Positions 1-19,961 of a DNA stretch of 64,000 nucleotides are shown here, piece after piece. The position numbers were made by a program, and so were the translations under genes. Under the pieces are notes generated by a model. It did not search any database and was not told the origin of the DNA. It saw only the letters and a program-made list of their open reading frames with translations. Source of the stretch: a virus; IMG/VR virus record IMGVR_UViG_3300037336_000025, positions 64,001 through 128,000 of that record; one strand, written 5' to 3'. Within the stretch, counting starts at the first letter, position 1. Every line of letters begins with the position of its first letter.

Positions 1-3000
1 TTAGTTCGTTACTAGCTGTCGATATTACAATATCTTTAAGAGTTGAAAACACTCCTGTCTTAGAATTAATTGTTTGCCCTAATATATTTGTAGTTGTATT
101 GGACCTATCAAAGCTGTCTGTAATAAATTCAAACGGTTTCATTAAACACATTGCTAATGTTACAGCAAACGGCCATTCGCTGCTAGATCTCCAAGCATAC
201 TCTGCTGGGCTAACATCCCCTAATACGAAGCTTCCTCTGTTGTTTATCAATGTAAAGTTTTTAGATACCCCGGCGTCTAACGGACTTAGTAAGTTACCGT
301 CACTATCAACCGGAATATATGTTGTTAATCCAGGACGCTTGTATCTATCATACGTTCCAGCAGTAGTGCCTTTGCGGATTATGCCAGCTTCAAGGTCTTC
401 CCAAAGAATTAAGTTGCCGCTAGTATAAGGAGCAGAACCGTACTCTGCTTCCCACCATACTGGCTGCTCTGAAAATCCTAACATTTCCCAAGGGCAACGA
501 TGTGGGCGATCAGTGTCAAAGAACCACTGGTATACTCCTCTCCAGTACCCTGGCAAATTTTGTGTACCAGATGGGTCGGTCATGTTACTGTATGTGTAAG
601 TGAAAGAATTTTCACTATCAAAATACTCGTTAATTGTATAGTTAATATTTGTGTTTTGAACCCACTTTAAAAACTCTTGCACAACAATGCCGTCTAATTG
701 AGATTTAGTATACAATACGTTACTGTAGTATCCGCCTACTACTAAATCATTATCAAAAATAGCTGTATTATATTCTTGCTTAATGTTGTTGTAAATTCTG
801 TATTCTAGTTCTAATAATAGATCATCACGGAAATCACCGTAAGAGGCAGTAATACTACCGTCGTGGCCTTGAATTACTTCTCTAGGTTCTTGGTAAGTAT
901 CATCGACAAATTTCATTGGTGTGTATTTTTTATACAGTCCCATTGATGTTGGTGTTGACGGAATATAGTTTGCTGCTGTCGAAATATATTCTCTAATTTC
1001 AACTTCGTCGTTTTCTGCCAAGTCAGCTAAAATAGTTATAAAACCAAAAGTAGCATTAAATTCATATTCTGTAGCGTTCAATAACTGTTGATTGTTTATG
1101 TAAACATAAACTGCTCTGTTGCTTAGTTCAGTTAGTGTAAATTTCTCTGATAATGCAAATGTTGTAATTCCAGTATCTTCTACTGTATAGTTGATAGCAA
1201 TAAATGCGCCGCTGCCAATCATGTCAGAATTTGAAAATGCACTATCTGCATTTTTTGTCTTGGTTAAGTCGGTAATGATATCATCAACAAAATTAATTAA
1301 GTTATCGTTATAATCTATAGTAGTAGACCTAGCAATAAAATTATTTTTAAAATCTGTATAAGATTTTCTAGCATGTTGAATTGATTTAATTATGTTAGAA
1401 GTTTTATCACATAATAAACTAACTGCTAACGGTGCAATTCCAGAATGCTTTAAAAATCTTTTTGCAAACGGTTGGTAGTCATCTAGATCTCGAATATTAG
1501 AAATGCCTGGAATATTTCCAGAATATCTAGTATCAAACTCAACTGATCCAGCTACGTGATCAATTGCCTGGCCTAATGTAAAAGTTGTTAATGCTTGATT
1601 TAACGGATTCTTTTCAAGACTAACCGGCATTTCATAATACCCGGTATCTGGAGACAAATCTGTAATTATTTTAACATATACAACGTCGTCAACTGCAAAA
1701 TTATTTGCAAAAGTGAATACTCCGCGCTCTCTAGTAATAGGCGTTACTTGTTTTTGCTGTTGGTTAACATAGAAATTAATTATTAAATTAGTATTATCAG
1801 TAACATTATCCCAGTTAATAGTTGTTAACTTTATAGTGTTAGTTACTTCGGTAATGACCTGACTATCAATGATAGGCTGGATATATGTATTATCAGTTTT
1901 AGTCCATCCGTTTAAATAAACATCGTCTGGATTAATTTTGAAATATCCGCTAGATATATTTTTAGTCAACTCTAATTGATCAAGAGTGTATGTGAAATTA
2001 TCAATTTCCCAATTCCAGTCAAACTGGATGTCGCCCACATTGTCAATATTCAAGTAACTTAGACTAAATCCTAATTCTTTGTCCGCAATACTGTTTCCAA
2101 TCTTGTATGCAAATAGTTTGTTTCCGTTAAAAGAATTTATAGGGTACGTATCAGTATTGGAAAAACTTATTCCATTACTGTCAAACACATCAAATAGCGG
2201 AGGCTGGTTGACTGCTGTTTTTGCTTGGCTAGCTAACCAACTTGATCCATTGAAATAATACATCAATCCGCCGTTATTCTTACCTCGACGTACTAATACT
2301 CCGGCGCCTGCTACAGAATCAGAATCTGTAGTTTCTGCTAAATGTATTCGTTTTTTGTTATTATGTGTAATAAAGTTAACTTCGTAAATTTTATTGTTTG
2401 CAAGAATATCAGTATCAGCAGTTACTAAAATTCGAGCGCCTTCAAATAAATTTTCTCCATCAATGTTGTAGCCAACACTACCTTCTATTTTAGAAAATAC
2501 ATCTGTTGTATAATCATCAATATAGTCTACAACTTCTTTAGAAATACTACCATGATTAAACAATTGAATGTTTGACTTAAACTCAATGATAGGACGTTTT
2601 GCTCTTTGAGATTCAGTTGCTGAAAAATCTTCGCCTCGTAAAGTGTAAGAATATTCTAATACATTTCGGTGGAACCAACGGTTATAACGACTCCAAGGAT
2701 TAGTATCTTTGCTATCACGTTTGATAGTGATATAATCTTTCTGTGCAGGATATGTTGTTGCATCGTCAAACGGCTGAGTATCAAATCCTTCATTATCAAA
2801 TACAACTTCCGGAGTATCTGTTGTCAACACAGGAACAATAAGATCTGCAAACCGTGTTAATGTAATTGCTGTGCCTACTCCTTCTACTAGCCAACTGTCT
2901 AGACTATATTTTAAAGGAGTAACTTGTCCTCTAAATTCTAAAACCATGCCGTTTGAGAATGTTATTCCGTTGCTGCTAGTGTAGGTTATTTTGCCAATGA

Positions 3001-3985
3001 TGTCTTTATCAATGTTTATCTTTGTGTTTGCCTCAATATCAGTAATTAGAAACCTACCAAACTTGTTAGGATCAATTAAACTTTGATAGAATAATACATC
3101 AGGTGCGTCGTACGGTACTTTAAAAGTTAAGGTTCCGTTTTCAATTCCATTATTAGTAACACCAATGCTATAGTCAAGGGCAGTGCCTGACGCTACAAGT
3201 GCTATAAATTCCCAATCCTGACTTCCAAGCGTAATACTACTGCTGGCTCCAGACGCAATTGCTACTTTAGCTTTCCATAGTTTGCCATCATATACCGCTT
3301 GTTCGTTTGCAGAATATGGGCGGGCTGGATTGAATATTAATGAGCCAGTGTCATAGTTTGTTCTAATTGCAAACCCTTCTTTAGGTGCTTTAATTTGAAA
3401 TTTATATGATTGGCCACGGTATAGTGTAATTGTTGGATTATTAGTAAATGAATCAGGAGTAAAGATAAAAGAGTTTAATCCGAGAGCAACTTTGTATGTG
3501 CTAATAATTTTTGCTGATTGACCGAATACTGGTATCGCTGGTGGTCCACTAGGTTCCCAGTAGTATTCGCGATAGTTAATAAACTTGTCCCAGTCAATAG
3601 GAGGATTCCAACTGTAGTGTTCTTGGCCTGTGATTAAGTCGTCACGTTCCTCTGTATTTCCAAAGAACTGTAATTGATTTTTAAAATCGAGATAATCGTA
3701 GAAACTGTCTACAGTGTTATTGGTTCTAGAAACTACTCCAGGTTCTAACTGATATCTGCTACGTAGTGTATTATCAGTATCAATATAGATATCAGATCCG
3801 TTGTATGTATTTCCATAGCGTCTTCCAACATATCCTACTAACTTTTGTAAGGTGCCTGGTTGAACTAACGGATCAACCACTGCCGACATGAATTTGTCAT
3901 TCGCGTCTGATCTAAAAACTGTTGGTAACAATTCAACAGTTTTTCTGATTGGTAAACCGCTTTGAGGGAATTTTTTATCTGCCAT
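1..3985 (-). CDS. Very large baseplate wedge/structural protein (gp7-like position), partial: runs off the left edge (>1328 aa)
   Basis: ATG at 3985 reads MADKKFPQSGLPIRKTVELLPTVFRSDANDKFMSAVVDPLVQPGTLQKLVGYVGRR. The frame is open wherever I translated it, including positions 2-120. It is missing from the ORF track, consistent with no stop before the edge. It lies directly downstream of gp6. Confidence 0.75.
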   Translation of the reverse strand, partial: MADKKFPQSGLPIRKTVELLPTVFRSDANDKFMSAVVDPLVQPGTLQKLVGYVGRRYGNTYNGSDIYIDTDNTLRSRYQLEPGVVSRTNNTVDSFYDYLDFKNQLQFFGNTEERDDLITGQEHYSWNPPIDWDKFINYREYYWEPSGPPAIPVFGQSAKIISTYKVALGLNSFIFTPDSFTNNPTITLYRGQSYKFQIKAPKEGFAIRTNYDTGSLIFNPARPYSANEQAVYDGKLWKAKVAIASGASSSITLGSQDWEFIALVASGTALDYSIGVTNNGIENGTLTFKVPYDAPDVLFYQSLIDPNKFGRFLITDIEANTKINIDKDIIGKITYTSSNGITFSNGMVLEFRGQVTPLKYSLDSWLVEGVGTAITLTRFADLIVPVLTTDTPEVVFDNEGFDTQPFDDATTYPAQKDYITIKRDSKDTNPWSRYNRWFHRNVLEYSYTLRGEDFSATESQRAKRPIIEFKSNIQLFNHGSISKEVVDYIDDYTTDVFSKIEGSVGYNIDGENLFEGARILVTADTDILANNKIYEVNFITHNNKKRIHLAETTDSDSVAGAGVLVRRGKNNGGLMYYFNGSSWLASQAKTAVNQPPLFDVFDSNGISFSNTDTYPINSFNGNKLFAYKIGNSIADKELGFSLSYLNIDNVGDIQFDWNWEIDNFTYTLDQLELTKNISSGYFKINPDDVYLNGWTKTDNTYIQPIIDSQVITEVTNTIKLTTINWDNVTDNTNLIINFYVNQQQKQVTPITRERGVFTFANNFAVDDVVYVKIITDLSPDTGYYEMPVSLEKNPLNQALTTFTLGQAIDHVAGSVEFDTRYSGNIPGISNIRDLDDYQPFAKRFLKHSGIAPLAVSLLCDKTSNIIKSIQHARKSYTDFKNNFIARSTTIDYNDNLINFVDDIITDLTKTKNADSAFSNSDMIGSGAFIAINYTVEDTGITTFALSEKFTLTELSNRAVYVYINNQQLLNATEYEFNATFGFITILADLAENDEVEIREYISTAANYIPSTPTSMGLYKKYTPMKFVDDTYQEPREVIQGHDGSITASYGDFRDDLLLELEYRIYNNIKQEYNTAIFDNDLVVGGYYSNVLYTKSQLDGIVVQEFLKWVQNTNINYTINEYFDSENSFTYTYSNMTDPSGTQNLPGYWRGVYQWFFDTDRPHRCPWEMLGFSEQPVWWEAEYGSAPYTSGNLILWEDLEAGIIRKGTTAGTYDRYKRPGLTTYIPVDSDGNLLSPLDAGVSKNFTLINNRGSFVLGDVSPAEYAWRSSSEWPFAVTLAMCLMKPFEFITDSFDRSNTTTNILGQTINSKTGVFSTLKDIVISTASNEL

Positions 3986-4007
3986 ATTTTATCTTCTTAA
4001 TACTCTG

Positions 4008-13337: not shown

Positions 13338-14186
13338 ATGAATACCGTACCCAAAATAAAGTACCTAACTAACAAAGATCTATTAAAAGAGATCCACAGA
13401 AGCAAAAACACATTTTGTACCTACTCTGCGCCCGAATACGCAGACTATGATATGATTATACCAAATGTAGAAAAGATCAATATTCGTACAATAGCGGAAG
13501 CTAAACGCAATAGAGCATCAAGATTAGCTAAATTAGCCCACGAAGCTGCTGTACTTGCAGGTGGTAAAAAGTTACCTTCTAAAGAATTCGAAATCGACTA
13601 TAAAACTATCAAGAAAGATGATGTAGTTTTTAGAGTTATGACCTTTGTACATGTTCCGCTTGCTCCGGGTCGTAAGAAGACTTTAAAAAATACTGCCGAT
13701 AGTCACGAAAAAGTGAATTTTCCTCCGTTCCAACACTGGAAGTTTGATGCTAATAATAACCTAATCTTAGTTGGTAAGAGCCACTGGAAAGGTGATTTTA
13801 CCACAGGAGTGTTTAATAAAGAACACGGGCAAATGACTAACAATCTAGCTCGCATGTTTTTAAAATTATGTGAAAGATATGCGACCAGAGGAAACGTTCG
13901 TGGCTATACTTACAACGATGAAATGCGCGGTCAAGCAATCCTTCAGCTCACCCAGATAGGTTTACAATTTGATGAAAGCAAAAGTGATAACCCGTTTGCT
14001 TACTATACCGCTGCTGTTACTAACAGTTTTGTTCGCATTATCAATATTGAGAAGCGTAATCAAAACATTCGAGATGATATTCTCGAAATGAACGGAATGA
14101 ACCCAAGTTGGAGTAGGCAGAACAGTGGGTCCGGAGGCGGTGGAGCAACTATTTCAGCTACACCTCCTGTTGGCGATAACGACTAG
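13338..14186 (+). CDS. gp55: Late-transcription sigma factor, gp55-like
   Basis: RGYTYNDEMRGQAILQLTQIGLQFDESKSDNPFAYYTAAVTNSFVRIINIEKRNQ parallels the T4 gp55 core (DEM...F.P.KS.NPFAY.T); adjacent to gp47/gp46 as in T4-like phages. A possible extended -10 (TGcTATTAT) sits at 13304-13312. Confidence 0.85.
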   Translation: MNTVPKIKYLTNKDLLKEIHRSKNTFCTYSAPEYADYDMIIPNVEKINIRTIAEAKRNRASRLAKLAHEAAVLAGGKKLPSKEFEIDYKTIKKDDVVFRVMTFVHVPLAPGRKKTLKNTADSHEKVNFPPFQHWKFDANNNLILVGKSHWKGDFTTGVFNKEHGQMTNNLARMFLKLCERYATRGNVRGYTYNDEMRGQAILQLTQIGLQFDESKSDNPFAYYTAAVTNSFVRIINIEKRNQNIRDDILEMNGMNPSWSRQNSGSGGGGATISATPPVGDND

Positions 14187-14231: not shown

Positions 14232-15242
14232 ATGTCATTGTTTAAAAAAGTCGCTTGTTTCACAGATATTCACTTTGGCCTTAAAAGTGGTAGTCGTACA
14301 CATAATCAAGATTGCGAAGATTTCGTATCTTGGTTCTGTGACACTGCTAAAGAACAAGGTTGCGAAACTGCAATCTTTCTAGGAGACTGGCATCATAATC
14401 GCAGTACTACAGACGTTAGTACTATGAATTATACTGTGAGCAACTTAGAGAAGCTGAGCAAAAGTTTTGAAAAAGTCTATTTTATTCTAGGCAATCACGA
14501 TCTGTTCTACAAAGACAAGCGTGAAATTAATAGCATCGAATTTATGCGACTGTTTCCTAACATTATTCCTGTTAGAGATCAATTAACAGAAGGTGATGTT
14601 ACTATTATGCCTTGGCTAATAGGCGACGAGTGGCGAGGAGTTTCTAAACTTAAAAGCCGCTATGTGTTTGGACACTTAGAGTTGCCATTGTTCTATATGA
14701 ACGCCATGGTGCAGATGCCAGATCACGGAACGTTGCAAGCTAGTCACTTTAGTGGACAAGAGTATGTATTCAGCGGACACTTTCATAAGCGACAGAGTAA
14801 AGGCAATGTAACCTACATTGGCAATGCTTTCCCCCATAATTATGCCGATGCAGGTGACGATGTTCGCGGTATGATGATTCTAGAGTGGGGCAATGAGCCC
14901 GAATATCATACATGGCCAGGGCAGCCCACGTTTAGAACCTACAAGCTGAGTCAGATTATTGACGACCCAGAAGGACTTCTACGTGAGAAGATGCATTGCC
15001 GTGTGACTATCGACTTGCCTATTACGTTCGAAGAAGCAAACTTTATCAAAGAGCAGTTTATTCCTCAGTACAAATTACGTGAGTTGATGTTAATCCCCGA
15101 AAAAGTAGAAATAGAATCAAATTCTGTTCCAATTGATATTAGCTTTGAAAGTGTAGATACAATTGTTATGAATCAAATTAATGCTATCGAAAGCGATGCA
15201 TTTGACAAAGGTATGTTGTTGGACATTTATAGAAACCTATGA
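14232..15242 (+). CDS. gp47: Recombination nuclease, Mre11/SbcD-like metallophosphoesterase
   Basis: Motifs FTDIHFG, FLGDWHH, ILGNHD, FGHLE, FSGHFH. Confidence 0.92.
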   Translation: MSLFKKVACFTDIHFGLKSGSRTHNQDCEDFVSWFCDTAKEQGCETAIFLGDWHHNRSTTDVSTMNYTVSNLEKLSKSFEKVYFILGNHDLFYKDKREINSIEFMRLFPNIIPVRDQLTEGDVTIMPWLIGDEWRGVSKLKSRYVFGHLELPLFYMNAMVQMPDHGTLQASHFSGQEYVFSGHFHKRQSKGNVTYIGNAFPHNYADAGDDVRGMMILEWGNEPEYHTWPGQPTFRTYKLSQIIDDPEGLLREKMHCRVTIDLPITFEEANFIKEQFIPQYKLRELMLIPEKVEIESNSVPIDISFESVDTIVMNQINAIESDAFDKGMLLDIYRNL

Positions 15243-17017
15243 TAAAAATTAAGAATTTAACTGTTAGAAACTTTATGAGTGTGGGCAATCAAACCCAGGC
15301 TATTAGTTTTGACAAAGGCCAGCTTACACTTGTACTCGGTGAAAACTTAGACCTTGGTGGAGATGATAGTGGTGCTCGCAACGGTACTGGTAAGACTACT
15401 ATTATTAACGGCCTTAGCTATGGCATTTATGGAACTGCTCTTACTAACATCAAAAAAGATAATCTAGTTAACAAGATTAACGGTAAGGGTATGTTAGTTA
15501 CCCTGACATTTGACAAAGATGGTCAAGAGTATCATATTGAACGTGGTCGTAAACCCAACGTACTCAAGTTTAGTATCAATGGTCAAGAACAAGATCTTAA
15601 AGACCTAGACGAAAGCCAAGGTGATAGTCGTGAAACACAAAAAGCCATTGAAGAGATGATGGGTATGAGTCACGATATGTTTAAGCATCTTGTGGCGTTA
15701 AACACTTACACTGAACCGTTCTTGTCTATGAAAGCTGGTGAACAACGCAGCATTATTGAGCAGTTATTGGGCATTACTTTACTTTCTGAAAAAGCAGAAA
15801 CCCTTAAAGAAGCTATCCGTATTAGCAAAGATTCAATTACGACAGAAAACACTCGCATTGAAACTATCAAAGTGTCCAACGAGCGTATACAGCAGAGTAT
15901 CGATGCGCTAGAACGAAAACAGCGCCTGTGGGATGAGACTAAAGAAAAAAATATCGAAAATATTTTAAAGAGCATTGACACGCTTAGTACTATTGATCCA
16001 GAAGTTGAAATTGTTAATCATAAGGCTCTTGCTCTCTACAATGAAAAACGTAAAGACATTAACGATTTAACTAGCGCAATGCAACGCACTCGATTAGAAC
16101 AAGATAAAGATGCAAAACGATTCGATAAGCTAACTGCTGAAATTGCTACTCTTAAAAATCACCAATGTCATGCCTGCGGACAAGAATTTCACGATGAAAA
16201 ACATGAGTCTGTACTTTCCGGTAAACTTAAAGATCTCAAAGAAGCTACTGTTAACTTCGAATCTGCCGGGGAAATAATTATGGACACTGAATTTGCCTTG
16301 AAAGAAATTGGTGAATTGGGTGATTGTCCTAGAGTACAGTACGACAGCTTAGAGGAAGCACTTAATCATAAGAATACTATCAACGGGTTAATTAAAGATT
16401 TAGAAATTAAAGAAGGTGATAATAATCCGTATCTTGAACAGATTAACGAACTTAAGAAAAGTGCGGTTCAGGAAATTAACTGGCAAGCTGTAAATGAAGC
16501 TAACCGCATCAAAGAGCATCAAGAGTTCCTGCACAAGTTGCTAACAAATAAAGATAGTTTTGTACGCAAACGAATTATTGATCAAAACTTAGCGCACTTG
16601 AATCAACGCCTAACATATTACCTCGATAAGATTGGGTTGCCACATATCGTTGAATTCCAGAATGACTTGGGTGTTATTATTACACAGTTAGGCCAAGATC
16701 TAGACTTTGATAACTTATCACGTGGTGAACGTAATCGATTAATTCTAAGTATGAGCTGGGCATTCCGTGATGTGTGGGAAAACTTATATCATAGTATCAA
16801 CTTATTGTTTATTGACGAGCTTGTTGATAGCGGTATGGACGCTAGCGGTGTTGAAAGTTCTATTAGTGTACTTAAAAAGATGACTCGCGAGCGTGATAAG
16901 AATGTGTTCTTGATCAGTCACCGTGATGATTTAACAAGTCGAGTAAATCATGTGCTCAAAGTAATAAAAGAAGGCGGCTTTACCACTTACAGCAACGACG
17001 TAGAGATAGTACAATAA
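15239..17017 (+). CDS. gp46: Recombination ATPase, Rad50/SbcC-like
   Basis: Walker A ARNGTGKT, coiled coils, zinc hook CHAC, signature LSRGE, Walker B LLFIDE, H-loop ISH; ATGA overlap with gp47. Confidence 0.93.
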   Translation: MIKIKNLTVRNFMSVGNQTQAISFDKGQLTLVLGENLDLGGDDSGARNGTGKTTIINGLSYGIYGTALTNIKKDNLVNKINGKGMLVTLTFDKDGQEYHIERGRKPNVLKFSINGQEQDLKDLDESQGDSRETQKAIEEMMGMSHDMFKHLVALNTYTEPFLSMKAGEQRSIIEQLLGITLLSEKAETLKEAIRISKDSITTENTRIETIKVSNERIQQSIDALERKQRLWDETKEKNIENILKSIDTLSTIDPEVEIVNHKALALYNEKRKDINDLTSAMQRTRLEQDKDAKRFDKLTAEIATLKNHQCHACGQEFHDEKHESVLSGKLKDLKEATVNFESAGEIIMDTEFALKEIGELGDCPRVQYDSLEEALNHKNTINGLIKDLEIKEGDNNPYLEQINELKKSAVQEINWQAVNEANRIKEHQEFLHKLLTNKDSFVRKRIIDQNLAHLNQRLTYYLDKIGLPHIVEFQNDLGVIITQLGQDLDFDNLSRGERNRLILSMSWAFRDVWENLYHSINLLFIDELVDSGMDASGVESSISVLKKMTRERDKNVFLISHRDDLTSRVNHVLKVIKEGGFTTYSNDVEIVQ

Positions 17018-17248
17018 ATGAGTACAGACAGTCATGATCGTATGATCCACGCTTTTCAGGAATACTTTAAGTATCAGGATCGCTTTGAACATCGAGGTTC
17101 AGATAGTGCTGGTGTTAGAGCACGATATTGGCTGAGTGAGATACGCAATGAGGCAAGTTTAAGGCGCACAGAAATACAGGCAAAAAGAGACGAACGTAAA
17201 GCAGCCAGGAAAGGCATGGTAGGAAGACCCCCTAAAATAAGTACTTGA
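17018..17248 (+). CDS. Small basic helical protein, Hc1 (histone H1-like)-related
   Basis: RGSDSAGVRARYWLSEIRNEASLRRTEIQ resembles the Hc1-type G-x-K-A-A-x-x-RAR...L.E......RR.EIQ pattern (recalled, not searched). Confidence 0.45.
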   Translation: MSTDSHDRMIHAFQEYFKYQDRFEHRGSDSAGVRARYWLSEIRNEASLRRTEIQAKRDERKAARKGMVGRPPKIST

Positions 17249-17682
17249 TGACATGGTACTATAAGAAGAAAGAAATTACTGCAATCTCCGAAGATTATAT
17301 CGGTTTCGTATATCTTATTACCAATGTCATCTCTGGGCGCAAGTATATAGGCAAAAAACTAGCAAAGTTCGCAAAAACAACTTATAAAACAGTTACACTT
17401 AAGAACGGCACTAAGAAAAAAAAGAAAATTAGAGGCAAGATTGAAAGCGATTGGAAGGACTATTATGGTTCTAGCGATGCGCTTACAGCAGATATTAAGA
17501 CTTTAGGCAAAAATAACTTCACCAGAGAAATTCTATTTTACTGCAAAAACAAATCAGAATGCAGCTACATCGAGGCAAGAGAACAATTTAAACACAAAGT
17601 TCTAGAATCTACTGACTGGTACAACGGTCACATACAGGTTCGAGTTCACGGCTCACATATCCTCAAAAAACCCAAAATTTAA
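17248..17682 (+). CDS. Compact GIY-YIG family endonuclease (144 aa from ATG 17248)
   Basis: GFVYLITNVISGRKYIGKK (GIY...YIG), KDYYGSS, FTREILFYC, YIEAREQF, WYNG. TAAGTA-N4 precedes the ATG. Confidence 0.85.
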   Translation: MTWYYKKKEITAISEDYIGFVYLITNVISGRKYIGKKLAKFAKTTYKTVTLKNGTKKKKKIRGKIESDWKDYYGSSDALTADIKTLGKNNFTREILFYCKNKSECSYIEAREQFKHKVLESTDWYNGHIQVRVHGSHILKKPKI

Positions 17683-17699
17683 GCAACACCATTGCCGCT

Positions 17700-18217
17700 A
17701 GGCACAGACAATTTCAACAAATCCAGGCATTTAATCACCAAAAAAGCCCGCACCGGCGACTATTACTGTGCCCTAAATCCGTTCTGATGTGTGACGGTAA
17801 GGAATCTCTACTTGGTGAAGAGGTTATAAATCACTATCCTTAACAGGACGACGATCGGATACGCCTACGTACAACCGGTTTGATTTATAAAGAGAATATT
17901 AAAAAGGCTAAAAGATGGGAGAGAGACCCACGATTACTATGTGCGATAGCGTGTGCATAGTAATTCGCCGTTATTATTAAGACGGAATGAGTAGGTACCG
18001 GATAACCGCCTACGCAAGCAGCAATGCTTATAGTTCTAACGCTACTGTGTACTGTGCAACTCGCATAATGCTAGATTTTCTTAGCCCGCAAGGGCTAAGT
18101 GTGACTGAACAATCTGCATAATACTTAATTGCATTAATAACATATCTCTTAAAATACTGTTAAATAAAAGAAGTGCTTTGAGCGTGAGCGAAAAAGCAAA
18201 TGAGCTTTAGCTCATTA
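17700..18217 (+). ncRNA. Putative large structured non-coding RNA of unknown class
   Basis: No ORF >=60 aa in ~600 nt of an otherwise wall-to-wall coding genome. About ten helices are visible, including 17824-33/17881-90 (10 bp perfect), 17933-41/17956-64 (9 bp), 18080-87/18092-99 (8 bp, GCAA loop) and 18016-20/18025-29 (GCAA loop). GNRA loops point to the + strand. Confidence 0.7.
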
Positions 18218-18278
18218 TTGTAATAAATAAACTATAGATCTGAAAAAGATTATAACATATGCCTAGGAATGAATTAAA

Positions 18279-18836
18279 ATGCGACTAACTGAAATCTTAA
18301 CTGAATCACAAGAACTTGAAGAAGGACCGTTAGGTGCTATTGGTCGTGGACTAGCTAAGGGCATTGGCGGGGTTGCTAAAGGCGTTGGTATGATTGGCGG
18401 CATTGCAGGTGGCGTTAAGAAAGCGTACCAAAAAGGTAAAGCTACTTCTACTGCAACCATTGCAGGTGATGTTCCAGATGCAGAACAAGATCCAGCTGCA
18501 GAACAAGATCCAGCTGTGAAAAAAGCATATGACGATGAATATGCTAAAGTTACGGCTCCTAAGAAAGCAGCTCCTAAGAACGCAGCACCAATGGCAGCAG
18601 CATCTGGGTACAAACAAGCACAGCAGGCCATTGCCACTTTAAAGCCTAGCGAGAAACAGAAAATTCTTGCTATGCTACAAACTTCAATGACAGCGCCGGC
18701 TCCTGTACGCAAAAATCCAGTTAGAGTTACTGGCAGAGCAGCAGCTCAACCAGCTCAACCAGCTATGCAGACTCAAAGTAAAGTTAATAGCGGTAAAGTA
18801 GTTGCCGAAGGCTTTACATTGTTCCGTCAAAAGTAA
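18279..18836 (+). CDS. Late Ala/Lys/Pro-rich protein, probable head-internal protein
   Basis: TAAATA at 18224-18229 upstream; N-terminal MRLTEILTESQELEEG with L-x-E sites like gp21 cleavage motifs; perfect 18-nt tandem duplication (AEQDPA x2, 18480-18515). Confidence 0.5.
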   Translation: MRLTEILTESQELEEGPLGAIGRGLAKGIGGVAKGVGMIGGIAGGVKKAYQKGKATSTATIAGDVPDAEQDPAAEQDPAVKKAYDDEYAKVTAPKKAAPKNAAPMAAASGYKQAQQAIATLKPSEKQKILAMLQTSMTAPAPVRKNPVRVTGRAAAQPAQPAMQTQSKVNSGKVVAEGFTLFRQK

Positions 18837-18850
18837 TATATACAGCCAAC

Positions 18851-18877
18851 AAAAAGCCTGCTTTAAGCAGGCTTTTT
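18851..18877. terminator. Bidirectional intrinsic terminator between convergent genes
   Basis: AAAAAGCCTGCT-TTA-AGCAGGCTTTTT, a perfect inverted repeat with T-tracts on both strands. Confidence 0.85.
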
Positions 18878-18882
18878 TATGA

Positions 18883-19113
18883 TTAAAAGAAAGGTAAGTT
18901 AGTTTTCTTTGTAGTCTCTAAGTTTTCTTTAATAATCTCAGCAACAATTTCTCTTTCATCATGACTTAGATTCATGCCTTCACTATAAGAAAGACCTCTC
19001 ATGTACCAACACATTTTGAGAACGTCTTTCTTGATTCCCTTAACCTCAGACTCCATCCGTTTGGCTATCTGTAAAATCTCCGGCAAAGGGCTGTTTAAGA
19101 TTTTACTGCGAAA
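18883..19113 (-). CDS. gp51-like C-terminal module, probably translated as the -1 frameshift extension of the gp26-like ORF
   Basis: The -1 frame is open from the slippery site: FRSKILNSPLPEILQIAKRMESEVKGIKKDVLKMCWYMRGLSYSEGMNLSHDEREIVAEIIKENLETTKKTNLPFF. No Shine-Dalgarno precedes the TTG at 19086. Confidence 0.6.
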   Translation of the reverse strand, partial: FRSKILNSPLPEILQIAKRMESEVKGIKKDVLKMCWYMRGLSYSEGMNLSHDEREIVAEIIKENLETTKKTNLPFF

Positions 19114-19119
19114 AAATTT
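19071..19119 (-). promoter_or_regulatory. Candidate -1 programmed ribosomal frameshift signal
   Basis: In-frame A_AAT_TTT (19119-19113), overlapping T_TTT_TTC, then a 6-nt spacer and a 9-bp stem GTAAAATCT/AGATTTTAC (19106-19098 with 19079-19071). Confidence 0.7.
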
Positions 19120-19961
19120 GATTGGTCCATTGTCACAGGTAGTAAGAACTCCTTATGACAGTCTCCGCATTGGACATCTTTTGCTTTAAACTCTATAGTA
19201 TCTTTAATTTTAGTAATGTGTGTTTGGATAGCTTCAAATACATCTTTAGATGAATTATTAATAAAGTCTTTGATCTGAACTTTATCGTCAGTGGATCCGT
19301 CTGGAGTTTCAATATGTGTAATGCAATCTGCAATAATATCAACTGTGAGTTCAGTTAGTCTAACAAAACTTTCACCAAACTTTTCTAACTTTAGTTCATC
19401 GCTGATTTCTTCATTATTGATAATACTAAAAATCTTCTGTTGCTCTAGTGTTTTAATTGATGCTTTTGTAACTTCTTTATAGTTGTAAGGTCTCACATGC
19501 ACGTTTAGCGGCCCAGCTTCTACAATTGAATTGTAAGTAAATTGGCTAAAGATACCAATCCAGTCTGACAGGTTGATATCGTAGGTATTTTCTTCTTTGC
19601 AATGTGGACAGTCTACTCTAACTTCCATGTTTTCGCCGTAGGTAGCGATGCGGATAGCAATGAGTGCAAAGTCTAGATCAATACTGGGCATTGCCCAGGG
19701 ATCTAAAATAGCAGGAATACAACTTTTAATAACTTCAACTGTACTTTGCCCGCTTAACAGTGCATCAGGAGTTTTAAACATTAACTCGTCTTTGGCAGTC
19801 ATTGAGTATACAGGATATTCTTCGTTTGCACTAACGTCTAATGCACCTGGGGGATAGAATCGACCTTGACTAGGCAATCTCACATAGATTTTAGGCTGTC
19901 TATACCAATTAGCCAAAGGATTTAATTTTGGCGTTTGCGGTATATTTACATTTTGATTCAT
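19095..19961 (-). CDS. gp26: Baseplate hub assembly protein, gp26-like (288 aa from ATG 19961)
   Basis: NPLANWYRQPKIYVRLPSQGRFYP...SMTAKDELMFKTPDALLSG...CPHC...CGDC zinc-ribbon pairs; GGAGA SD before ATG 19961 (the ORF-track start at 20045 overlaps the divergent gene). Confidence 0.75.
   Translation of the reverse strand: MNQNVNIPQTPKLNPLANWYRQPKIYVRLPSQGRFYPPGALDVSANEEYPVYSMTAKDELMFKTPDALLSGQSTVEVIKSCIPAILDPWAMPSIDLDFALIAIRIATYGENMEVRVDCPHCKEENTYDINLSDWIGIFSQFTYNSIVEAGPLNVHVRPYNYKEVTKASIKTLEQQKIFSIINNEEISDELKLEKFGESFVRLTELTVDIIADCITHIETPDGSTDDKVQIKDFINNSSKDVFEAIQTHITKIKDTIEFKAKDVQCGDCHKEFLLPVTMDQSNFFAVKS

What the first reader, a model, noticed from the sequence alone, without database searches (positions are those of the whole stretch)
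17238..18230. Unidentified ~520-nt highly structured RNA directly downstream of a compact GIY-YIG nuclease: possible nuclease-RNA system
Seen: this is the only long non-coding gap in the window, and it folds extensively. Helices include GGCACAG/CTGTGCC (17701-07/17766-72), TTATAAATCA/TGATTTATAA (17824-33/17881-90, a long-range helix enclosing TCCT-TAAC-AGGA and ATCGG/CCGGT), TGGG/CCCA (17916-30), ATTACTATG/CATAGTAAT, GTAGG...CGG-ATAA-CCG-CCTAC (17991-18013), AAGCA-GCAA-TGCTT, ATGC(T)AGATT/AATCTGCAT enclosing CTTAGCCC-GCAA-GGGCTAAG, TGCTTT...GC-GTGA-GC...AAAGCA and AATGAGC-TTTA-GCTCATT. Three GNRA tetraloops on the + strand are a hallmark of tertiary-folded RNAs. The upstream GIY-YIG gene has its own TAAGTA-N4-ATG, and I see no terminator between it and the RNA. 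The protein is only 144 aa, lacks the NUMOD DNA-binding tail of the other GIY-YIG in this window, and has a Lys-rich insertion (TVTLKNGTKKKKKIRG). Known: large ornate RNAs (GOLLD, ROOL, HEARO/OMEGA) occur in phages or next to nucleases. Inference: this is either a new large ncRNA class or an RNA partner/guide/ribozyme linked to the nuclease. Caveat: similar short GIY-YIG genes are common in T4-like phages, so the adjacency could be incidental.
Basis: partly seen in the sequence, partly recalled or inferred. Interest (0 to 1): 0.85.

Follow-up and report, generated by a model that had tools for sequence, protein, structure and literature searches.

The report
Full-length Polynucleobacter-1 phage RNA
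The gap behind the small nuclease gene of this uncultured T4-like phage encodes a real, roughly 520-base, knotted non-coding RNA whose first third is the catalogued but unexplained Polynucleobacter-1 motif; it is not a dedicated partner of the nuclease, and its function is still unknown.

Summary
Window 17693-18216 (+) is a conserved, ORF-free, strongly covarying RNA: 99 pairs, 86% paired against 35-44% in slid controls, 64 pairs changed on both sides.

It is not unidentified. Positions 17745-17890 match Rfam RF01718 (Polynucleobacter-1) at 70 bits against a cut-off of 37. Weinberg 2010 already noted that the motif lies behind the PSSM2_218-type gene, which is this GIY-YIG family. The uncatalogued 3' two-thirds holds two pseudoknots and two identical 7-nt boxes (GCATAAT at 18063 and 18116). 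The boxes stay identical through 13 or more variants.

An obligate nuclease-RNA partnership is not supported:
- The GIY-YIG family occurs in 468 cultured phages, and four whole genomes checked lack the RNA.
- About 40 bacterial loci in small integrase islands of Polynucleobacter and Limnohabitans carry the RNA without the nuclease.
- Some phages have a gene inserted between the two.
- In four phages a PDDEXK resolvase-type nuclease fills the same slot.

Seen here: the islands carry T4-late-type promoter boxes ([AC]TAAATA) before the RNA (37/37) and before neighbouring genes. They also carry a clamp-loader-like ATPase.

This scan has reported the same RNA before on other DNA. Function is unknown.

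The parts
13338..14186 (+). gp55-like late sigma factor; first gene of the + strand block that ends in the RNA
   Evidence: phrog_12791, E 1e-75
14232..17017 (+). gp47 (SbcD/Mre11-like, 14232-15242) and gp46 (SbcC/Rad50-like, 15239-17017) recombination nuclease subunits
   Evidence: phrog_100, E 6e-63; phrog_77, E 7e-102
17018..17248 (+). 76-aa ORF with no family; syntenic in close relatives
17245..17682 (+). 145-aa GIY-YIG-only nuclease (SegE-type domain). It belongs to the family that GenBank phage records call 'NAD synthetase', which includes P-SSM2 PSSM2_218
   Evidence: PF19835, E 5e-33; phrog_447; 40% identity to PSSM2_218, E 9e-25
17693..17739 (+). 5' leader with two small hairpins (17693-17704 with a GCTA loop; 17726-17739). 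It also holds the degenerate counterpart (TCAACAAATCC, 17716-17726) of the island promoter box
   Evidence: alignments; helices 1-2 (67-70% paired, weakest part)
17745..17890 (+). Polynucleobacter-1 core (Rfam RF01718): P1 17750-54/17767-71, P2 17779-97, P3 17806-09/17819-22, P4 17824-33/17881-90 enclosing P5 17837-40/17845-48 and P6 17853-58/17875-80
   Evidence: 70 bits, cut-off 37, model positions 1-141; covariation
17916..18043 (+). 'Tail' domain. Hairpins T1 17916-19/17927-30 and T2 17933-44/17953-64. T4 17992-95/18009-12 with 17999-18001/18006-08, enclosed by T5 17985-88/18033-36. Pseudoknot PK1 17948-52/18039-43 and loop-loop pseudoknot PK2 17971-74/18002-05. 18016-18029 is an extra hairpin found in a few subgroups only
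   Evidence: PK1 98% paired with 5/5 pairs changed on both sides; PK2 100% paired with 3/4; T5 98.5% with 4/4; T2 12/12
18047..18124 (+). Twin-box module: an imperfect direct repeat of about 25 nt (R1 18047-18071, R2 18099-18124). The identical 7-nt boxes GCATAAT lie at 18063-18069 and 18116-18122, after AACTC and AATCT respectively. They flank the conserved hairpin 18080-87/18092-99 (GCAA loop)
   Evidence: Boxes identical in 84 loci through 13 or more variants; hairpin 90% paired; no complement in cis
18174..18216 (+). Two terminal hairpins: S1 18174-79/18193-98 (inner GC-GTGA-GC) and S2 18199-205/18210-16. Probable 3' end of the RNA. On the minus strand S2 followed by a T-run scores as a terminator
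   Evidence: S2 98% paired, 6/7 pairs changed on both sides
18223..18229 (+). ATAAATA, a T4-type late promoter box (NATAAATA) for the next gene (ORF 18279-18836). Not part of the RNA
   Evidence: 7 of the window's 13 ATAAATA sites lie 25-75 nt upstream of same-strand genes. The box is conserved wherever a + strand gene follows. Consensus from PMC2984593

Best explanation
Window 17693-18216 (+) is a full-length member of the Polynucleobacter-1 RNA family. It is a self-contained, multi-pseudoknotted non-coding RNA of about 520 nt.

Shown:
- It is a real RNA-level structure on the + strand.
- It occurs once in this phage record.
- In the phage it directly follows the gp55-gp47-gp46-orf76-GIY-YIG block, with no + strand terminator-like site after the nuclease gene and no conserved promoter in between.
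- The same RNA, but none of the neighbouring proteins, also sits in small integrase islands of freshwater Burkholderiales.
- There it is preceded by a conserved [AC]TAAATA box of the T4 late-promoter type.

Inferred: in the phage it is probably co-transcribed as the 3' tail of that operon. It is an autonomous RNA module that works in trans during infection by T4-like phages. The conserved knotted scaffold holds out two identical, unpaired, fast-changing 7-nt boxes to a sequence-specific reader. The adjacency to the GIY-YIG nuclease is synteny: the slot behind Mre11/Rad50-like gp47/gp46 holds a junction-resolving-type nuclease. It is not a guide-effector pairing.
For: Identity:
- RF01718 at 70 bits against a cut-off of 37, full model.
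- Weinberg's own alignment continues into the tail.

Structure:
- 99 pairs in 19 helices, 86.1% of cells paired against 35-44% for slid partners.
- 64 pairs changed on both sides; 0 of 500 shuffles reach the observed values.

Independence from the nuclease:
- 468 cultured phage records have the GIY-YIG family. Melnitz, phiM7, MED4-213 and P-SSM2 have no RF01718 anywhere in their genomes.
- About 40 bacterial loci hold RF01718 at 64-104 bits with no GIY-YIG by tblastn.
- ORFs of 0.75-1.2 kb are inserted between nuclease and RNA in several phage loci.
- GIY-YIG is replaced by PDDEXK_15, which matches a PHROG annotated as a RusA-like Holliday junction resolvase, in L183, L252, L162 and L174.
- L228 has the RNA in a quite different context.

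Twin boxes:
- Identical in 84 loci through 13 or more variants.
- Unpaired, with no complement in cis.

Islands:
- [AC]TAAATA lies 31-67 nt before the RNA in all 37 bacterial RNA loci (37/37; 36/36 with enough upstream sequence).
- It also lies 6-25 nt before the SD and ATG of a small gene, and 135-250 nt before a short tyrosine recombinase gene. Background is 0.027 per 100 nt per strand.
- The phage's own late boxes are NATAAATA (PMC2984593).
- The islands carry a clamp-loader-like ATPase (phrog_168, E 1e-17).
Against: - No expression data: no RNA run holds this sequence. Transcript ends, timing and co-transcription are therefore inferred.
- In an RNA-first sample of phage contigs, a small nuclease gene lies immediately upstream in about 69 of 70 loci with enough sequence. 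A functional link in phages is therefore weakened, not excluded.
- The phage counterpart of the island promoter box is degenerate. This window has AACAAATC, and the motif is absent in diverged relatives.
- The promoter reading of the island boxes rests on sequence and position only.
Confidence: 0.55

Rival explanations
1. Nuclease-RNA system. The RNA supplies target recognition to catalytic-domain-only DNA enzymes encoded next to it: GIY-YIG or PDDEXK nuclease in phages, and a 188-aa tyrosine recombinase in islands. The twin 7-nt boxes would specify two identical DNA cores.
For: - The upstream gene is a small nuclease without a DNA-binding domain in nearly all phage loci.
- It is displaced in situ by an unrelated nuclease in four loci.
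- The RNA starts within about 10-60 nt of the nuclease stop codon.
- In 16 of 24 islands a short recombinase follows on the same strand.
- A 7-nt box is the size of a tyrosine-recombinase overlap region (my own knowledge, not tested here).
Against: - The GIY-YIG family is widespread without the RNA.
- The RNA occurs without any nuclease in about 40 bacterial loci.
- Genes are inserted between nuclease and RNA in some loci.
- The boxes are only 7 nt long and low in diversity, and no long variable guide-like segment is present.
- Island end repeats do not contain the box.
- Earlier agents dismissed the inversion-switch reading (e1-3733604, e1-3804639; not re-tested here).
Confidence: 0.06
2. Replication signal. 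The transcript is a structured pre-primer or R-loop RNA that starts DNA synthesis, like ColE1 RNA II or the T4 oriF/oriG transcripts. The islands carry it so that the phage replisome copies them.
For: - One copy per phage record and 1-2 per bacterial genome.
- It lies beside recombination and replication genes.
- L162 has an RNase H gene (PF00075, E 2e-44) between the nuclease and the RNA.
- The islands have a clamp-loader-like ATPase.
- An earlier agent raised the idea (e1-5835852).
Against: - The local skew minimum in G000 lies about 4.5 kb away, at a strand switch, and follows gene orientation. This test is inconclusive.
- An elaborate tertiary fold with kissing loops and twin boxes is not explained by priming.
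- No AT-rich unwinding element was identified.
Confidence: 0.1
3. Cis-acting mRNA element. The structure is a 3' UTR that stabilises or terminates the gp55-47-46-nuclease transcript, or insulates it from the late gene downstream.
For: It is always at the 3' end of the operon. It ends in two stable hairpins. S2 scores as a terminator on the minus strand.
Against: - Five hundred nucleotides with pseudoknots and invariant single-stranded blocks is far more than a stabiliser needs.
- In bacteria it stands alone behind its own promoter-like box, divergent from the upstream gene.
- In L228 it follows an unrelated gene.
Confidence: 0.07
4. DNA-level element. The twin boxes and the palindrome between them are protein-binding repeats (iterons or recombination sites), and the 'structure' is incidental.
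For: Identical repeats that change in step are typical of sites read by one protein. The minus strand folds as well as the plus strand.
Against: - Many conserved G-U pairs would be C-A mismatches on the other strand (for example 32 GU at one P6 pair).
- The covariance-model match is strand-specific.
- Long-range pseudoknots covary.
- Box spacing varies from 47 to 78 nt, with no helical phasing.
Confidence: 0.04

Closest known systems
Polynucleobacter-1 RNA motif (Rfam RF01718; Weinberg et al. 2010, Genome Biol 11:R31, PMC2864571)
   Same: The 5' 146 nt match the whole model at 70 bits. Gene context is the same (behind the GOS11034/PSSM2_218-type gene). The tail hairpins seen here, such as GGUACCG-NNNN-CCGCC and the long hairpin with a ...AGCG... 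loop, are visible in the paper's supplementary alignment, which also marks a tail pseudoknot.
   Different: - Rfam holds only 141 positions, while the RNA here is about 520 nt.
- The paper found it in no sequenced purified phage and left its function open.
- The upstream gene was not recognised as a GIY-YIG nuclease.
- As far as the one paper found in the library shows, the twin boxes, the 3' module and the island promoter boxes are not described.
Large ornate bacterial and phage RNAs (GOLLD, ROOL, HEARO/omega RNA, OLE, raiA)
   Same: Size class (several hundred nt), many helices with pseudoknots, and occurrence in phages and mobile elements. For most of them no function was known when they were found (my own knowledge).
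   Different: No Rfam model of any of them matches, even at E up to 10. Unlike HEARO/omega RNA, there is no long variable guide and no obligate nuclease partner.
IS110-type bridge RNA and other RNAs that programme recombinases or nucleases
   Same: A structured RNA next to a DNA-cutting enzyme. It has two short specificity segments that must agree with each other (resemblance recalled from my own knowledge).
   Different: The enzymes here are GIY-YIG, PDDEXK or tyrosine-recombinase types. The association is not obligate, and no target carrying the box was found. This is an analogy only.
ColE1 RNA II and T4 origin transcripts
   Same: A long structured transcript in a replication and recombination neighbourhood, present in a mobile element that must be copied.
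   Different: No evidence of an RNA-DNA hybrid or an origin here. The skew test was inconclusive.

Membership tests
Polynucleobacter-1 RNA (RF01718) | Covariance-model score at or above the curated gathering score, over the whole model | tested here: met
   70 bits against 37, model positions 1-141 of 141, E 8e-13
Polynucleobacter-1 RNA (RF01718) | The model's helices are kept by compensatory changes in relatives | tested here: met
   P1, P3, P4, P5 and P6 have pairs changed on both sides in a 33-sequence alignment. Only the three outer pairs of P2 were counted. P2 and P4 reach 71% and 65% pairing, lowered by MAFFT gaps. Relatives score 71-120 bits.
Polynucleobacter-1 RNA (RF01718) | Lies downstream of a GOS11034/PSSM2_218-like gene (context noted by the discoverers) | tested here: met
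   The upstream GIY-YIG is 40% identical to PSSM2_218, E 9e-25
Polynucleobacter-1 RNA (RF01718) | 3' 'tail' with further hairpins and a pseudoknot, as in the original Stockholm file | tested here: met
   Homologous tail sequences can be read in supplement file 101. The tail helices and two pseudoknots covary here.
Guide or partner RNA of a nuclease (omega RNA/HEARO-like) | RNA and nuclease co-occur obligatorily | tested here: not met
   The RNA occurs without the nuclease in about 40 bacterial loci. The nuclease occurs without the RNA in cultured phages.
Guide or partner RNA of a nuclease (omega RNA/HEARO-like) | A variable guide segment long enough to specify a target | tested here: not met
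   The only co-varying free segments are two 7-nt boxes with 13 or more variants
Guide or partner RNA of a nuclease (omega RNA/HEARO-like) | Physical complex and RNA-dependent cleavage | not testable with these tools
   Needs biochemistry
GOLLD / ROOL / group I or II intron / RNase P / tmRNA / 6S | Match to the family's covariance model | tested here: not met
   No other family at E up to 10 in 17600-18300; no tRNA or tmRNA
GIY-YIG nuclease, SegE-type domain (PF19835) | Pfam score above cut-off and the GIY...YIG, Glu and Asn motifs | tested here: met
   114 bits against 25. The translation shows GFVY...KYIG, FTREIL and WYNGHI. Their match to I-TevI motifs is by eye, from my own knowledge.
Free-standing homing endonuclease (Seg-like) | Sporadic distribution among close relatives, plus a DNA-binding domain | tested here: not met
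   Present and syntenic in all 80 loci, and better conserved (90-96% aa) than gp46 (71-75%). Only 145 aa, with a catalytic domain alone.

The most novel reading that the evidence does not exclude
The RNA is the one module shared between T4-like phages and small mobile islands of their freshwater hosts. Those islands are wired into the phage's late programme through T4-late-type [AC]TAAATA promoters before the RNA, before a small gene and before a short recombinase, and they carry a clamp-loader-like ATPase. On this reading the islands would be satellite-like or interference elements of T4-like phages. The RNA, with its two re-programmable 7-nt boxes, would be the device through which island and phage compete for, or hijack, the same infection-stage partner.
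Probability: 0.12. Interest if true: 0.85.

Novelty: new member of a known kind. Interest (0 to 1): 0.5.

Why it matters
Large non-coding RNAs with several pseudoknots are rare. Each one that has been explained (RNase P, the self-splicing introns, omega RNAs) revealed new biochemistry.

This family is abundant in uncultured aquatic T4-like phages, and hundreds of contigs carry it. Yet it is listed in Rfam only as a 141-nt orphan.

It is shared with integrative islands of Polynucleobacter and Limnohabitans that appear to use phage-type late promoters. This gives a concrete, testable handle on its role: infection-stage expression, box-swap experiments and island induction.

For this particular finding, the practical result is negative. 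It is not a new class, and it is not a demonstrated nuclease-RNA system.

Tried and rejected
- Expression: no RNA holder listed for window 16000-19500. All 24 runs are DNA contigs.
- blastn of the phage RNA and of a bacterial copy against 50,697 cultured phage records: no match.
- A complement of the twin boxes, in cis within the RNA or elsewhere in the 8-kb island loci: nothing consistent in position.
- Rolling-circle or template-jump idea (boxes as jump sites, as in DRT2): concatemers of the 47-78-nt inter-box unit have no conserved open frame, and no polymerase gene is nearby.
- Boxes as the island att core: island end repeats do not contain the box. These are a 17-nt tRNA-like repeat in L136 and a duplicated 1.5-kb gene in L134.
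- Small stems closing each box (GTGT with ATGC or ATAC): not kept in diverged relatives (alignment). Dropped.
- T3 stem 17968-71/17982-85: competes with PK2 and shows no covariation. Dropped.
- Origin test by cumulative GC and AT skew in G000: the local minimum is at about 76-77 kb, at a strand switch 4.5 kb from the RNA. Inconclusive.
- DUF6641 fold: the single-sequence AlphaFold model has pLDDT 43 and is unusable. The protein atlas only returned DUF6641 clusters.
- GIY-YIG against PDB sequences: no hit.
- Island proteins against phage loci and the window: no homologue.
- Clamp-loader-like protein against G000: no hit; the record is only about 53% complete.
- Energy as a strand test: both strands give z of about -3.4.
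- The ORF-poor region 671-4007 was checked against Rfam and with TAG read as Gln: nothing found.
Full report
**What is there.** The window is part of a 186-kb IMG/VR virus record, about 53% complete. It is a T4-like phage. On the + strand lie a gp55-like late sigma factor (13338-14186), gp47 (14232-15242), gp46 (15239-17017), a 76-aa ORF and a 145-aa GIY-YIG protein (17245-17682). Then comes 596 nt without any ORF of 50 aa or more, then ORF 18279-18836, then baseplate-hub genes on the minus strand. ARAGORN finds no tRNA.

**Identity.** Rfam gives one hit in the whole window at gathering threshold: RF01718, Polynucleobacter-1 RNA. It lies at 17745-17890 on the + strand and scores 70 bits against a cut-off of 37, covering model positions 1-141.
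- The only paper in the library that names the motif is Weinberg et al. 2010 (PMC2864571).
- Its supplement says the motif is mostly found downstream of genes of family GOS11034, with possible homology to PSSM2_218 of cyanophage P-SSM2. It also says the 3' half is not always detected and that no sequenced purified phage had the motif.
- PSSM2_218 is a 145-aa protein annotated 'NAD synthetase'. It is 40% identical to the GIY-YIG here, E 9e-25.
- The original Stockholm file carries 'tail' and 'tailpknot' subfamilies. Its flanks contain recognisable homologues of the hairpins at 17933-18013 and of the 3' module.

**Conservation and structure.** Searching viral contigs with the GIY-YIG protein gave 423 relatives, of which 80 loci were kept.
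- In most loci with enough downstream sequence, 17685-18240 or a large part of it is alignable directly behind the nuclease gene. Identity is about 70-75% in close relatives and lower elsewhere. RF01718 scores 71-120 bits in the diverged loci.
- I wrote a structure of 99 pairs in 19 helices and counted it on a 33-sequence alignment (A1).
- 86.1% of cells are paired, against 35-44% when the partners are slid. 64 pairs show changes on both sides, and 0 of 500 shuffles reach any of the five measures.
- Apart from the Rfam core, the best supported elements are:
  - the long hairpin 17933-44/17953-64 (12 of 12 pairs with double changes);
  - pseudoknot PK1, between its loop (17948-52) and 18039-43 (5/5 pairs, 98% paired);
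  - the loop-loop pseudoknot PK2, 17971-74 with 18002-05 (100% paired);
  - helix 17985-88/18033-36 (4/4 pairs);
  - hairpin 18080-87/18092-99;
  - the terminal hairpins 18174-98 and 18199-216.
- Both strands fold about 3.4 sd better than shuffles. The strand is therefore given by the model match and by frequent G-U pairs.

**Twin boxes.** A search of our earlier findings showed that this scan has met the same RNA many times on other DNA. Earlier agents reported 'twin 7-letter boxes', pseudoknots and nuclease-free islands. I re-derived these here.
- The seven bases after AACTC (18063-69) and after AATCT (18116-22) are both GCATAAT.
- Across 84 loci the two boxes are always identical to each other while changing between lineages. 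The variants seen are GCATAAT, AGATAAT, ACATAAT, GGATAAT, GGATGAA, GGATGAT, AGCTGAA and AGATGAG in phages, and AGCGAAA, ATCGAAA, AGAGAAA, GGAGAAA and ACCAAAA in bacteria.
- They sit in an imperfect direct repeat of about 25 nt. They are unpaired in the consensus and have no complement at a consistent place in the RNA or in the island.
- Concatenated inter-box units have no conserved reading frame.
- Their reader remains unknown.

**Is the nuclease a partner?** Evidence against an obligate link:
- The GIY-YIG family is found in 468 cultured phage records, 339 of them Synechococcus phages and many labelled 'NAD synthetase'.
- In Melnitz, phiM7, MED4-213 and P-SSM2 the gene sits in other contexts with no long gap after it. 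RF01718 is absent from their whole genomes.
- A pattern scan of bacterial genomes gave 47 loci. About 40 of them hold RF01718 at 64-104 bits, in Polynucleobacter, Limnohabitans, Comamonadaceae and other Burkholderiales. There are one or two copies per genome. None has a GIY-YIG homologue.
- In some phage loci a gene of 0.75-1.2 kb separates the nuclease and the RNA.

Evidence that keeps some link possible comes from an RNA-first sample of viral contigs.
- Of 120 loci matching a 14-base pattern, 83 carry the RNA.
- Nearly all with enough upstream sequence have the GIY-YIG just before it.
- In four of the five exceptions the same slot holds an unrelated nuclease, PDDEXK_15. It scores E 1e-26 to 1e-30 and also matches a PHROG annotated as a RusA-like Holliday junction resolvase.
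- The fifth exception (L228) has the RNA behind an amidoligase-like gene.

My reading is as follows. The slot after the Mre11/Rad50-like gp47/gp46 holds a junction-processing nuclease, which can be of either fold. The gene is better conserved than gp46 itself (90-96% against 71-75%), so it behaves as a core gene rather than a selfish homing endonuclease. The RNA lies next to it because this gene order is conserved throughout the clade.

**The bacterial copies.** In bacteria the RNA sits in small integrative islands. One in L137 is about 6.5 kb, and another is bounded by a 17-nt tRNA-like repeat.
- Neighbours are a divergent DUF6641 gene (33 of 34 loci with enough sequence), a small upstream gene, and a 188-aa tyrosine recombinase about 850 nt downstream on the same strand (16 of 24 loci). 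There are also a full-length integrase and an ATPase.
- The ATPase matches phage clamp loaders (phrog_168, E 1e-17) and RFC/DnaX models.
- No island protein has a homologue near the phage RNA. Only the RNA is shared.
- A heptamer [AC]TAAATA lies 31-67 nt before the Rfam start in all 37 loci (37/37; 36/36 with enough upstream sequence).
- The same box lies 6-25 nt before the Shine-Dalgarno and start codon of the small upstream gene, and 135-250 nt before the short recombinase gene. The background is 0.027 sites per 100 nt per strand. In the GC-rich Limnohabitans locus, three of the four sites in 20 kb are these.
- No conserved -35 element accompanies the box.
- The box matches the late promoter of T4-like phages: TATAAATA in T4 and NATAAATA in cyanomyoviruses (PMC2984593).
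- In this window, 7 of 13 ATAAATA sites lie 25-75 nt before same-strand genes, including 18223 just after the RNA.
- The inference is that these islands are transcribed by the late machinery of an infecting T4-like phage. This rests on sequence and position only.

**Mechanism.** What is shown is a strand-specific, knotted RNA structure. It is an autonomous module found in two kinds of mobile DNA, and it carries two matched free boxes.

What is inferred is that it is made during T4-like infection. In the phage it is probably the 3' end of the gp55-47-46-nuclease transcript: there is no + strand terminator-like site after the nuclease gene and no conserved promoter, since the motif is degenerate here and in diverged relatives. 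In the islands it would come from a late-type promoter. It would then act in trans by presenting the two boxes to one sequence-specific reader.

Rival readings are scored in the Rival explanations section and cannot be excluded without experiments. They are a nuclease or recombinase guide, a replication pre-primer, a cis-acting 3' UTR and a DNA-level site. The skew test for an origin was inconclusive, and no RNA-seq run holds this sequence.

**Verdict.** The structure is real and interesting. It is nevertheless a member of a catalogued orphan family that this scan has already reported repeatedly.

Noticed in passing
window 671-4007: A 3.3-kb stretch with no ORF of 64 aa or more on either strand, so the RNA gap is not the only long gap. 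No Rfam family at E up to 0.1, no tRNA, and no long frame when TAG is read as Gln.
   Followed up: partly
L089-L132 (bacterial loci); L134-L137: Small integrase islands of Polynucleobacter and Limnohabitans carry positionally conserved [AC]TAAATA boxes of the T4 late-promoter type. They lie before the RNA, before a small gene (6-25 nt from its SD and ATG) and before a 188-aa tyrosine recombinase. The islands also encode a clamp-loader-like ATPase (phrog_168) and DUF6641. They look like elements wired to T4-like late transcription.
   Followed up: partly
L183:3963-4484, L252:8819-9385, L162:1198-1719, L174:3893-4423: In these phage contigs the GIY-YIG slot between gp46 and the RNA is filled by an unrelated PDDEXK_15 nuclease, which matches a PHROG annotated as a RusA-like resolvase. 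This is non-homologous displacement in situ. L162 also has an RNase H gene (PF00075) between that nuclease and the RNA.
   Followed up: partly
window 17245-17682 and GenBank phage records (e.g. NC_006883 PSSM2_218): The GIY-YIG-only family (PF19835, phrog_447) is labelled 'NAD synthetase' in many of the 468 matching cultured-phage records. This looks like a propagated misannotation.
   Followed up: partly
window 13290(-), 18223, 19973, 29293, 40422, 51543, 57723: ATAAATA boxes 25-75 nt upstream of same-strand genes. They are the likely late promoters of this phage (NATAAATA type).
   Followed up: partly
L228:8357-8825: A copy of the RNA in a different phage context: behind a 649-aa amidoligase-like gene, with no gp46, nuclease or hub gene within 11 kb.
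   Followed up: no
L017:826-1454: A relative in which the middle of the RNA region is replaced by, or expanded with, about 630 nt of unrelated sequence between the conserved 5' leader and the 3' module.
   Followed up: no
L134:8883-10430 and 17298-18545: The Limnohabitans island is bracketed by a duplicated stretch of about 1.5 kb of one gene. This suggests integration into a gene whose end the island replaces.
   Followed up: no
window 18016-18029: An extra AAGCA-GCAA-TGCTT hairpin inserted in helix T5's loop. It occurs only in this window's subgroup and a few others (L054, L071, L080), so it marks a variable expansion site of the RNA.
   Followed up: partly
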